Sequence record: PQ471515.1
Reading direction: 5' to 3' (one strand)
Length of the DNA stretch: 64,000 nucleotides
Origin: Escherichia phage Turkey3
Below are positions 4,915-5,526 of the stretch, one piece after another. The position numbers and the translations under genes are program-made. The notes under the pieces were generated by a model that did no database searches, was not told the origin of the DNA, and saw only the letters and a program-made list of their open reading frames with translations. Positions within the stretch are counted from its first letter, which is position 1; each line of letters opens with the position of its first letter.

Positions 4915-5526
4915 ATGAAAACTATCACTACTACTACTTATGTTATGGCTTTTTCTGAATTGAACGCAGAACAACAAACGTCAGCTATCGAACTGGTTCG
5001 GGAACGTGAAAAAAACTTAAACGATGATTATTTTTCTGAAAGTGAAATTGAATACTATAAAGAAACAGTACTACCGGAATATGGCATTAATGACGCTGAT
5101 TTACGTTTCAGTGGCTTTTGGTCCCAGGGTGACGGTGCATCAATCAGTACTGACCACGTTGACGCAGTGAAGTTTTTACGCAAGGTAAGAGCATTAACTA
5201 AGTATCGCTCAATCCGTCACCTTCTGAATGAAGATGATTTGGCGATGAGTGTAAAGCGTTCTCACTCCCACTACTCGCATGAGAATACTGTAAGCGGGTA
5301 CATTGAATCGGCTTACACTGATTTAACCGCAAAACAAGAAACGTTAGTTAATGAGCTTGAGGAACTACTCACTGAAACTATTCGTGAATTATCCCGCAAG
5401 TTGTACCGTGATTTAGAGAATGCATATGAGGATCAATTCACTACTGAAAACATTACGGCACTGATTGAGGGTAACGAATATCAATTCAATGTCATTGATG
5501 GTGTAGTAGAATCAATCGAATATTAA
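4915..5526 (+). CDS. acidic hypothetical protein (203 aa)
   Basis: Own promoter, RBS GAGGG; E/D-rich sequence. Confidence 0.65.
   Translation: MKTITTTTYVMAFSELNAEQQTSAIELVREREKNLNDDYFSESEIEYYKETVLPEYGINDADLRFSGFWSQGDGASISTDHVDAVKFLRKVRALTKYRSIRHLLNEDDLAMSVKRSHSHYSHENTVSGYIESAYTDLTAKQETLVNELEELLTETIRELSRKLYRDLENAYEDQFTTENITALIEGNEYQFNVIDGVVESIEY

What the first reader, a model, noticed from the sequence alone, without database searches (positions are those of the whole stretch)
4915..5526. Highly acidic 203-aa early protein: possible DNA mimic or anti-restriction factor
The protein is rich in D/E throughout and has its own promoter. Acidic early proteins in phages are often DNA mimics (Ocr and ArdA types). 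This is inference from composition and context only; I could not assign a family.
Basis: inference. Interest (0 to 1): 0.35.

Follow-up and report, generated by a model that had tools for sequence, protein, structure and literature searches.

The report
Widespread uncharacterised phage/plasmid entry-stage protein
The gene is real and sits behind a strong promoter, but it is only moderately acidic and resembles no known DNA mimic; it belongs to a very large, unnamed protein family that phages, plasmids and E. coli genomic islands keep beside their anti-restriction genes, which makes it a reasonable but untested counter-defence candidate.

Summary
The 203-aa ORF (4915-5526, +) is real. It has a GAGGG ribosome-binding site and a perfect sigma-70 consensus promoter 33 nt upstream. 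"Highly acidic" overstates it: pI 4.58, net charge -19, about half the charge density of Ocr or ArdA, and only 27th of 161 ORFs in this window.

The window comes from an Asteriusvirus jumbo coliphage (99% identical to phage UB). The protein belongs to phrog_5162, function unknown. The family has about 9,800 clusters at 50% identity, no Pfam or NCBIfam model, and no relative in the PDB by sequence or by fold (AF2 model, pLDDT 90).

What the family conserves is not charge, which ranges from -39 to 0. It conserves loop motifs: SGFWSQGDGA, Y-x-H-E, and Y164/N187/F191.

Context supports an entry-stage role:
- In alphaproteobacterial elements the gene lies directly upstream of a methyltransferase-helicase, near ArdC, ParB, SSB, DUF932 and RadC.
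- In a betaproteobacterial element it lies beside a methyltransferase, an ArdB/KlcA-domain protein and a SNF2 helicase.
- In 1,943 of 5,426 E. coli genomes it lies in the order DUF932, antirestriction, RadC, YeeT, this gene, CbeA, CbtA.
- It is a module of a Fic-containing phage polyvalent protein encoded next to the portal gene.

Verdict: a plausible counter-defence or establishment effector that works through a specific conserved site. DNA mimicry is unsupported.

The parts
4915..5526 (+). CDS, 203 aa, member of phrog_5162 (the 'SQGDG' domain family). Predicted alpha/beta fold: b1-a1-a2-b2-b3-a3-a4-b4-b5-a5(long)-a6-b6-b7.
   Evidence: ORF; phrog_5162 at E 7e-80; 99% identical to phage UB AXC37055; AF2 pLDDT 90.4, pTM 0.81.
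4903..4907 (+). Shine-Dalgarno GAGGG, 7 nt upstream of the ATG.
   Evidence: Read directly from the sequence.
4855..4882 (+). Proximal sigma-70-type promoter, TTGACA-16 nt-TATAAT (12 of 12 matches).
   Evidence: one of 14 perfect sites in the window, 0.27 expected.
4729..4764 (+). Distal promoter cassette AAAAGTACTTGCAAACTATGTTTAAAGGCGTATAAT, one of five near-identical copies. It is followed by a roughly 90-nt ORF-less leader (4771-4856).
   Evidence: Leader fold -19.4 kcal/mol, z = -1.95.
5110..5142 (+). Codons for residues 66-76, SGFWSQGDGAS. This is the loop of the b2-b3 hairpin. G67, F68, Q71, G72, D73 and G74 are invariant in 118 sequences.
   Evidence: secondary structure.
5269..5289 (+). 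Codons for residues 119-125, HYSHENT. This is the loop of the b4-b5 hairpin. Y120 and H122 are conserved at about 97-98%. E123 is usually conserved but is replaced in some members (A, P or S).
5618..5857 (+). Downstream neighbour, 79 aa, phrog_871 / DUF7249-like. This domain is fused C-terminally to the phrog_5162 domain in metagenomic protein P0336.
3512..3814 (+). Upstream paralogue of the same phrog_871 / DUF7249-like family, 100 aa.

Best explanation
The gene encodes a stand-alone copy of a very large, uncharacterised single-domain family (phrog_5162, here called the 'SQGDG' domain). Phages, conjugative plasmids and ICEs, and E. coli genomic islands all share it.

In this jumbo phage it is transcribed by host RNA polymerase from a consensus sigma-70 promoter, so it is made immediately after DNA entry. 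I infer that it acts at the establishment stage, most probably as a counter-defence (anti-restriction-type) or host-takeover effector.

I infer that the working surface is a specific polar site. It is built from the loops of three beta-hairpins (Q71/D73 in SGFWSQGDGA, Y120/H122 in HYSHE, N187/F191/G196) plus Y164 on the long helix. This site would bind, or possibly chemically act on, a defined host protein or ligand. The acidic helices are a secondary and variable feature. The mechanism is not bulk DNA mimicry.

Shown here: the gene, the promoter, family membership, the conserved residues, the fold prediction, the genomic associations, and the domain fusions. Inferred: the timing, the target, and the anti-defence role.
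For: (1) Family size and conservation. There are 9,762 clusters at 50% identity with E<=1e-3, nearly all stand-alone proteins of 185-240 aa. G57, G67, F68, Q71, G72, D73, G74, A75, Y120, H122, Y164, L167, N187, F191 and G196 are invariant or nearly so in 118 phage and bacterial mobile-element sequences.

(2) Synteny in independent element lineages.
- Alphaproteobacteria: in 66 of 80 loci the gene lies upstream of, and on the same strand as, a roughly 1,450-aa methyltransferase/Strawberry-notch helicase, and in 49 of them within 500 bp. ArdC, ParB, Toprim and YAcAr lie nearby. An annotated plasmid adds H-NS, SSB, DUF932 and RadC.
- Betaproteobacterial element: homologue, DUF6094 methyltransferase, one unknown gene, PF03230 Antirestrict protein, SNF2 helicase.
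- Another Pseudomonadota contig: homologue, HATPase, N6_Mtase+SNF2.
- Bacteroidota: integrase, DUF932, DUF1281_C, one unknown gene, homologue.
- E. coli islands: GTPase, DUF932, antirestriction protein, RadC, DUF987, homologue, CbeA, CbtA. This is present in 1,943 of 5,426 complete genomes.

Methyltransferase-helicase dyads are interpreted as DarB-like anti-restriction modules (PMC5512222). Orphan methyltransferases, SSB and anti-restriction genes mark plasmid anti-defence islands (PMC11541004).

(3) Domain fusions. P0252 (1,479 aa) combines a Fic/Doc domain, the phrog_5162 domain (residues 779-960) and phrog_554, separated by repeated linkers. It is encoded directly upstream of a portal gene. 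That is the architecture of injected polyvalent proteins (PMC5512222). Nine further multidomain proteins carry the domain.

(4) Dispensability. Several rV5-like phages carry frameshifted, truncated or internally deleted copies, as expected of an accessory gene.

(5) Expression signals. There is a perfect sigma-70 promoter and an SD sequence. The rV5 orthologue, gp180, lies in an array with annotated sigma-70 promoters. No protein of about 23.5 kDa that could be the homologue appears in the virion proteome of the related phage phAPEC6 (I matched by mass only).
Against: All functional evidence is guilt by association.
- The neighbouring clusters also hold genes of other or unknown roles (RadC, DUF932, toxin-antitoxin pairs, primase).
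- The 80 bacterial loci are dominated by one related lineage of elements.
- I did not test leading-region position relative to oriT.
- The phage lacks the methyltransferase-helicase partner, so the tightest synteny does not carry over to phages.
- Only one fusion (P0252) has a confirmed virion-module context. Neighbours of the others could not be identified.
- No structural relative exists to suggest a chemistry.
- The family is not among the known anti-defence proteins I could search for in the literature.
Confidence: 0.5

Rival explanations
1. DNA-mimic anti-restriction protein of the Ocr/ArdA type. On this reading, arrays of surface Asp/Glu imitate the phosphate backbone and titrate type I R-M (or other DNA-binding) enzymes.
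For: The protein is acidic (pI 4.58, net -19). Acidity is common among phage-side homologues: median pI about 4.5, net about -20. About 18 alignment columns are acidic in at least 70% of sequences, concentrated on helices a2, a5 and a6. The gene has an early-type promoter. Family members neighbour anti-restriction genes.
Against: Charge density is about half that of Ocr or ArdA (reference sequences recalled from memory). The protein is unexceptional within its own genome, 27th of 161 ORFs. The central 40 residues are neutral to basic. Acidity is not a family invariant: ICE, plasmid and island homologues have pI 4.8-5.6 and net charge 0 to -13. By contrast, specific polar and glycine loop residues are invariant over about 10,000 clusters, a pattern typical of a defined site rather than a charge decoy. 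There is no sequence or fold match to any known mimic.
Confidence: 0.12
2. A function unrelated to defence. Candidates are an accessory factor of element DNA processing or regulation at entry (for example a cofactor of the methyltransferase-helicase, ParB or primase machinery), or a host-takeover factor aimed at host physiology rather than immunity.
For: In Alphaproteobacteria the gene is tightly linked on the same strand to the methyltransferase-helicase, followed by Toprim. The C-terminal a5-a6-hairpin gives weak, non-significant matches to winged-helix domains: RPA32 C-terminal domain at E 0.12 and Pi protein at E 0.32. In one polyvalent protein the domain is fused to a Fic/Doc domain, which is a host-modifying toxin-type domain.
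Against: Phages that carry the gene lack the methyltransferase-helicase. E. coli islands carry the gene without it as well. So the protein cannot be an obligate subunit of that enzyme. An acidic protein is an unlikely DNA binder. The winged-helix matches are not significant.
Confidence: 0.2
3. Antitoxin of a toxin-antitoxin system. This follows NCBI's name 'antitoxin of toxin-antitoxin stability system' and the annotation 'YeeU-like antitoxin' in Klebsiella phage K64-1.
For: These names are given by the sources. In E. coli islands the gene lies immediately upstream of cbeA (yeeU) and cbtA.
Against: The E. coli islands already encode a separate, genuine YeeU/CbeA antitoxin next to it, so the name most likely arose from adjacency. 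There is no Pfam or NCBIfam hit to any antitoxin family and no fold match to YeeU structures in the PDB. No toxin partner was recognised next to the gene among the conserved neighbours annotated in 80 mobile-element loci, or in the phage loci examined, where all neighbours are of unknown function. The phrase is a generic COG-style label with no supporting study in the searched literature.
Confidence: 0.04

Closest known systems
ArdA (PF07275) and Ocr (T7 gp0.3) DNA-mimic anti-restriction proteins
   Same: These are small acidic proteins made at the moment of DNA entry by phages and conjugative elements. They are encoded in the same kind of anti-defence or establishment neighbourhoods in which homologues of this protein are found.
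   Different: There is no sequence or fold relationship. Charge density is about half. Acidity is not conserved across the family, whereas loop motifs are. The predicted fold is an alpha/beta sandwich-like domain. It is not the all-alpha Ocr fold or the three-domain ArdA fold (those fold descriptions come from my own knowledge).
Domains of 'polyvalent proteins' and their solo versions (Iyer, Burroughs, Anand, de Souza and Aravind 2017, PMC5512222)
   Same: The domain occurs both as a module of a large multi-domain phage protein encoded beside the portal gene (with Fic/Doc) and as a solo protein in phages and conjugative elements. It lies next to ArdC, ParB, methyltransferase-helicase, Toprim and DUF3846, which is the gene set that paper describes.
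   Different: It matched none of the Pfam models at E up to 1. Pfam includes the LPD families, as far as I recall, so this appears to be an unnamed domain. Only a few fusions were seen among thousands of stand-alone copies.
ArdB/KlcA-type 'antirestriction protein' (PF03230) and ArdC (PF08401 + PF18818)
   Same: These are genomic neighbours of family members in betaproteobacterial, alphaproteobacterial and E. coli elements. All are presumed to act on incoming DNA or host defences.
   Different: The families are unrelated by sequence. No homology was detected.
YeeU/CbeA antitoxin (type IV TA)
   Same: It is the adjacent gene in E. coli CP4-44-like islands, and the source of the annotation carried by some family members.
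   Different: It is a different protein: 122 aa against about 215 aa, encoded separately next to the homologue. There is no sequence or fold match.

Membership tests
phrog_5162 (PHROGs v4, unknown function) | Significant full-length match to the family profile | tested here: met
   E 7.4e-80, residues 4-198 against profile positions 3-198 of 201.
Ocr (T7 gp0.3) DNA mimic | Sequence/profile similarity to Ocr | tested here: not met
   No Pfam hit above noise. No PDB sequence hit.
Ocr (T7 gp0.3) DNA mimic | Ocr fold | tested here: not met
   The AF2 model (pLDDT 90) is mixed alpha/beta with 7 strands. Foldseek against the PDB gave a best E of 1.8 and TM below 0.25, with no Ocr entry listed.
ArdA (PF07275) | Profile match to ArdA, or a fold match to the ArdA structure | tested here: not met
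   No Pfam hit. No Foldseek PDB match.
DNA-mimic proteins (functional class) | Very high and conserved negative charge density | tested here: not met
   -0.094 per residue, against about -0.19 to -0.24 for ArdA and Ocr (reference sequences from memory). Family net charge ranges from 0 to -39.
DNA-mimic proteins (functional class) | Surface carboxylates spaced like B-DNA phosphates, and binding to a DNA-binding enzyme | not testable with these tools
ArdB/KlcA (PF03230 Antirestrict) | Profile match | tested here: not met
   No hit. PF03230 is instead found in a neighbouring gene in L011.
YeeU/CbeA antitoxin family | Profile or fold match to YeeU | tested here: not met
   No Pfam or NCBIfam hit. 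No Foldseek PDB hit.
YeeU/CbeA antitoxin family | Conserved adjacent toxin for which this protein is the only antitoxin candidate | tested here: not met
   In E. coli a separate cbeA lies between the homologue and cbtA. No toxin partner was recognised among the conserved neighbours in the bacterial mobile-element loci or in the phage loci.
Polyvalent-protein-associated domains (sensu PMC5512222) | Found as a module in a multi-domain protein of a phage virion module or a conjugative element, and as solo copies in such elements | tested here: met
   P0252 is Fic + phrog_5162 + phrog_554, encoded upstream of the portal gene. Nine more fusions were found. Solo copies occur in phages, plasmids and ICEs.
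Plasmid leading-region anti-defence genes (sensu PMC11541004) | Enrichment in the first-transferred region next to oriT | not tested
   oriT and relaxase positions were not mapped. Only co-location with SSB, DUF932, RadC, methyltransferase and anti-restriction genes was seen.
Anti-restriction proteins (functional class) | Relieves restriction of unmodified DNA in vivo | not testable with these tools
   Needs an efficiency-of-plating or conjugation assay.

The most novel reading that the evidence does not exclude
The 'SQGDG' domain (phrog_5162) is a previously unrecognised and very widespread counter-defence effector with a fold absent from the PDB. Phages use it as an early gene or as an injected polyvalent-protein module. 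Conjugative plasmids, ICEs and E. coli CP4-type islands use it too. It would neutralise a common host barrier, for example a restriction or DNA-degradation activity, through a conserved Q-D-H-Y pocket rather than by DNA mimicry. A functional link to the flanking DUF7249/phrog_871 proteins is possible.
Probability: 0.3. Interest if true: 0.7.

Novelty: new member of a known kind. Interest (0 to 1): 0.4.

Why it matters
If the family does counter host defences, it would add a very abundant new anti-defence fold. It has about 10,000 clusters at 50% identity and is present in more than a third of complete E. coli genomes. It would also explain a conserved but unannotated gene in three places: the establishment clusters of alphaproteobacterial plasmids, E. 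coli CP4-44-type islands, and the early regions of therapeutic-candidate coliphages (rV5-like and jumbo phages).

There is a practical point as well. The database names this family currently carries ('antitoxin of toxin-antitoxin stability system', 'YeeU-like antitoxin') appear to be unsupported.

As it stands, the finding is a well-contextualised hypothetical protein, not a demonstrated function.

Tried and rejected
- Family and structure searches found nothing. This covers Pfam on the protein and on 50 homologues, NCBIfam, PDB profile searches with two alignments and one ICE homologue, and Foldseek against the PDB. The BFVD viral library returned only uncharacterised family members.
- Weak matches were dismissed as composition-driven and below threshold: HVO_A0114 (E 0.006), DUF7247 (E 0.1), the RPA32 winged helix (E 0.12) and holin phrog_6995.
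- YeeU antitoxin reading: rejected, see the rivals.
- Obligate partner of the methyltransferase-helicase: rejected, because that protein is absent from the window and essentially from the phage collection.
- 2H-phosphoesterase or HExxH-type metalloenzyme, suggested by 'HYSHE'. Only one H-x-S motif is present. The first His is not conserved, and E123 is replaced by A, P or S in bona fide members. I therefore claim no specific catalytic class.
- Rfam and tRNA scans of the window gave nothing.
- Literature searches for phrog_5162, DUF7249, the NCBI name, and anti-defence work on Vequintavirinae or Asteriusvirus found no study of this protein.
- The neighbours of the fusion proteins in L086 could not be identified as portal or terminase.
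- A paralogue search in the window found a single copy only.

Full report
**1. The observation**

Window 4915-5526 (+) holds an ATG-to-TAA ORF of 203 aa. A GAGGG Shine-Dalgarno sequence lies 7 nt upstream of the ATG. TTGACA-16-TATAAT, a 12/12 sigma-70 consensus, lies at 4855-4882. A second promoter at 4737-4764 is part of a 36-nt cassette repeated five times nearby.

The composition is acidic but not extreme. D+E is 19.2%, K+R is 9.9%, pI is 4.58 and net charge is -19. Residues 81-120 are neutral to basic. The protein is only the 27th most acidic of 161 + strand ORFs of at least 60 aa in the window. Ocr and ArdA, from sequences I recalled from memory, carry about -0.24 and -0.19 charge per residue, against -0.094 here.

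Having its own promoter is the rule in this region. There are 14 perfect TTGACA-N16-18-TATAAT sites and 14 TTGCAA-N16-TATAAT sites, all on the + strand, against fewer than 0.3 expected. So the ORF and the promoter are confirmed. 'Highly acidic throughout' is overstated.

**2. What it is**

The window comes from an Asteriusvirus jumbo coliphage. The protein is 99% identical to a hypothetical protein of Escherichia phage UB and 95-97% identical to others in the genus.

The protein is a full-length member of phrog_5162, function unknown (E 7e-80). Homologues occur in:
- rV5-like Vequintavirinae, at about 58% identity (rV5 gp180/ORF185, which lies in an array with annotated sigma-70 promoters);
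- RaK2 and K64-1;
- Erwinia, Serratia and Yersinia jumbo phages;
- Bacillus phage JBP901.

An exhaustive profile search finds 9,762 clusters at 50% identity with E<=1e-3, and 1,762 with E<=1e-30. Almost all are stand-alone proteins of 185-240 aa.

No Pfam or NCBIfam model matches the protein or its homologues. PDB profile searches are empty.

AlphaFold2 with a 50-sequence alignment gives a confident model: pLDDT 90.4, pTM 0.81. The order of elements is b1-a1-a2-b2-b3-a3-a4-b4-b5-a5(long)-a6-b6-b7. Foldseek finds no PDB relative (best E 1.8, TM below 0.25). In the viral library it finds only uncharacterised family members. The membership tests for Ocr, ArdA, ArdB/KlcA and YeeU therefore all fail.

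**3. What is conserved**

I aligned 118 sequences from phages and bacterial mobile elements. The invariant or nearly invariant positions are G57, G67, F68, Q71, G72, D73, G74, A75 (motif SGFWSQGDGA, the loop of hairpin b2-b3), Y120 and H122 (motif HYSHE, the loop of hairpin b4-b5), Y164, L167 and Y171 on the long helix, and N187, F191 and G196 at the last hairpin.

E123 is usually conserved, but it is A, P or S in clear members.

About 18 columns are acidic in at least 70% of sequences, mostly on a2, a5 and a6. Overall acidity, however, is not a family constant. Phage-side members have a median pI of 4.5 and net charge of -18 to -20. ICE and plasmid members have a median pI of 5.1 and net charge of -10, ranging to 0. 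The E. coli island homologue has pI 5.3 and net charge -7.

A fixed set of polar and glycine loop residues combined with variable charge points to a defined binding or catalytic site. It does not point to a charge decoy.

**4. Genomic context outside phages**

A scan of one genome per species found at least 510 bacterial loci. NCBI names these proteins 'antitoxin of toxin-antitoxin stability system'. That is a generic label for which I found no supporting study.

*Alphaproteobacterial elements.* Among the 80 best loci, mostly alphaproteobacterial, 66 have the gene upstream of, and on the same strand as, a protein of about 1,450 aa with AAA_34 and Helicase_C_4 (Strawberry-notch type) domains. 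In 49 of them the gap is under 500 bp. RefSeq annotates this protein as a bifunctional SAM methyltransferase/helicase. ArdC (ArdcN + MPTase-PolyVal), a roughly 716-aa ParB-like protein, DUF7146/Toprim and YAcAr/DUF2493 lie around it. The annotated Neotabrizicola plasmid adds H-NS, SSB, DUF932 and RadC just upstream. The homologue is present on 104 PLSDB plasmids, 41 of them typed as conjugative.

*Independent lineages repeat the theme.*
- A betaproteobacterial element has TopoIII, then further on the homologue, a DUF6094 methyltransferase, one unknown gene, a PF03230 Antirestrict protein and a SNF2 helicase.
- A Bacteroidota element has an integrase, DUF932, DUF1281_C, one unknown gene and the homologue.
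- Another contig has the homologue, a HATPase and an N6_Mtase+SNF2 protein.

*E. coli.* A 215-aa homologue (27% identity, E 1e-9) sits in CP4-44-like islands. The gene order is GTPase, DUF932, antirestriction protein, RadC (YeeS), DUF987 (YeeT), the homologue, CbeA (YeeU), CbtA. By megablast at 80% coverage or more, it is present in 1,943 of 5,426 complete genomes, with up to 8 copies per genome. This adjacency probably explains the 'YeeU-like antitoxin' label in phage K64-1. That linkage group has been noted as multi-copy and of unknown function (PMC6480617).

*Interpretation from the literature.* Methyltransferase-helicase dyads are interpreted as DarB-like anti-restriction devices (PMC5512222). 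Orphan methyltransferases, SSB and anti-restriction genes characterise plasmid anti-defence islands (PMC11541004).

**5. Domain fusions**

P0252 (1,479 aa) has an N-terminal Fic/Doc domain, the phrog_5162 domain at residues 779-960, and a phrog_554 domain. The modules are separated by repeated L-K-x-[SA]-F-x-[DE]-[DE]-P linkers. Its gene lies directly upstream of a portal gene and near protease-like genes. This is the architecture of polyvalent proteins, which are proposed to be packaged and injected with the DNA (PMC5512222).

Nine further proteins of 362-1,059 aa carry the domain. In eight of them it is circularly permuted, with profile positions 92-197 preceding positions 10-86.

P0336 fuses the domain to a C-terminal DUF7249 segment. 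That segment is homologous to the two phrog_871 genes that flank the finding's gene in the window, at 3512-3814 and 5618-5857. This is a single Rosetta-stone hint of a functional link.

**6. Other points**

- Several rV5-like phages carry broken copies: frameshifted, N-truncated or internally deleted. The gene is therefore dispensable in at least some settings, as accessory counter-defence genes usually are.
- The phage window has no homologue of the element-side partners (methyltransferase-helicase, ArdC, ParB, Toprim, YAcAr), and the Strawberry-notch protein is essentially absent from the phage collection. The protein is therefore not an obligate subunit of that enzyme.
- The published virion proteome of the related phage phAPEC6 lists no protein of matching mass (this is an indirect comparison). 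That is consistent with de novo early synthesis in this phage group.

**7. Explanation and rivals**

*Best supported (about 0.5).* The protein is an entry-stage establishment or counter-defence effector. It is made from a host-type promoter and acts through the conserved loop pocket on a specific host target or ligand.

*DNA mimicry (about 0.12).* This is not excluded for the acidic phage branch. It lacks every testable hallmark.

*A role unrelated to defence, in DNA processing or host takeover (about 0.2).* This remains possible.

*The antitoxin reading (about 0.04).* This is most likely an annotation artefact.

Every functional statement here is an inference from context. None was tested.

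**8. Novelty and verdict**

The family is catalogued in PHROGs and under generic NCBI names, but it is uncharacterised, has no Pfam model and has no solved structural relative. I file it as a new, unnamed member of a known kind: the establishment or anti-defence modules shared by phages and conjugative elements. It is not an Ocr/ArdA-type mimic.

Interest is moderate (0.4). The cross-phylum synteny, the polyvalent-protein fusions and the abundance in E. coli nevertheless make this a good, cheap experimental target.

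Noticed in passing
window 3512-3814 and 5618-5857 (+); P0336 / L090 8001-9518: Two paralogous small genes (phrog_871, DUF7249-like; motif GHKNKTHWNVSLWINN..SLYRLAQ) flank the finding's gene. 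In metagenomic protein P0336 the same domain is fused C-terminally to the phrog_5162 domain. phrog_871 occurs in 289 phage records, including cyanophages and Ralstonia podophages. I found no literature on DUF7249.
   Followed up: partly
P0337, P0339-P0345 (loci L086-L089): In eight multidomain proteins the phrog_5162 domain is circularly permuted: the C-terminal half (profile positions 92-197) precedes the N-terminal half (positions 10-86). This implies that the termini lie close together in the fold.
   Followed up: partly
window 1-64000, + strand (for example 1759, 4855, 12243 ... and 3036, 3496, 4174, 4737, 5539 ...): There are 14 perfect TTGACA-N16-18-TATAAT sites and 14 TTGCAA-N16-TATAAT sites, all on the + strand (0.27 and 0.08 expected). 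A 36-nt promoter cassette is repeated five times between 3028 and 5566. Almost every small ORF has its own host-type promoter.
   Followed up: yes
window 1295-2926, 4405, 4707-4716, 5144-5153, 6521 and others: The palindrome TCAGTACTGA occurs 16 times (0.08 expected). Seven copies lie in an ORF-poor stretch of about 2 kb (about 1100-3060). One lies about 20 nt upstream of the distal promoter's -35 hexamer, and one lies inside the finding's CDS. The related string AGTACTGTATAAT overlaps the -10 element of 13 promoter-like sites. This may be an operator or regulatory motif.
   Followed up: partly
window 4771-4856 (+): The distal promoter is followed by a leader of about 90 nt with no ORF before the proximal promoter. 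The leader folds into a nested hairpin (-19.4 kcal/mol, z = -1.95). There is no Rfam match.
   Followed up: partly
window 93-1091 (+): There is a tandem array of five paralogous small ORFs of 60-69 aa, each starting M(H/N/Q)K(E/D)(H/Y)KEYY.
   Followed up: no
L093 12001-12648; L094 7001-7645 (E. coli): A distant homologue of the phage protein lies between yeeT (DUF987) and cbeA (yeeU) in CP4-44-like islands. It is found in 1,943 of 5,426 complete E. coli genomes, with up to 8 copies. It is annotated either 'hypothetical' or 'antitoxin of toxin-antitoxin stability system', and the latter name appears unsupported.
   Followed up: partly
P0066, P0067, P0069, P0080 (rV5-like phages magaca, Alma and others): The orthologue is frameshifted, N-truncated or internally deleted in several rV5-like phage genomes.
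   Followed up: partly
L092 5133-7711 (Neotabrizicola plasmid): A cassette of multiubiquitin, E2/UBC, ThiF and DUF6527 genes (a ubiquitin-like conjugation system) lies between ParB and the SSB/DUF932/RadC/homologue cluster.
   Followed up: no
L086 17543-18328: The phage-like contig that encodes a permuted-domain fusion protein also carries Dam and an Acb2/Tad1-hairpin (anti-CBASS/Thoeris sponge-like) gene.
   Followed up: no
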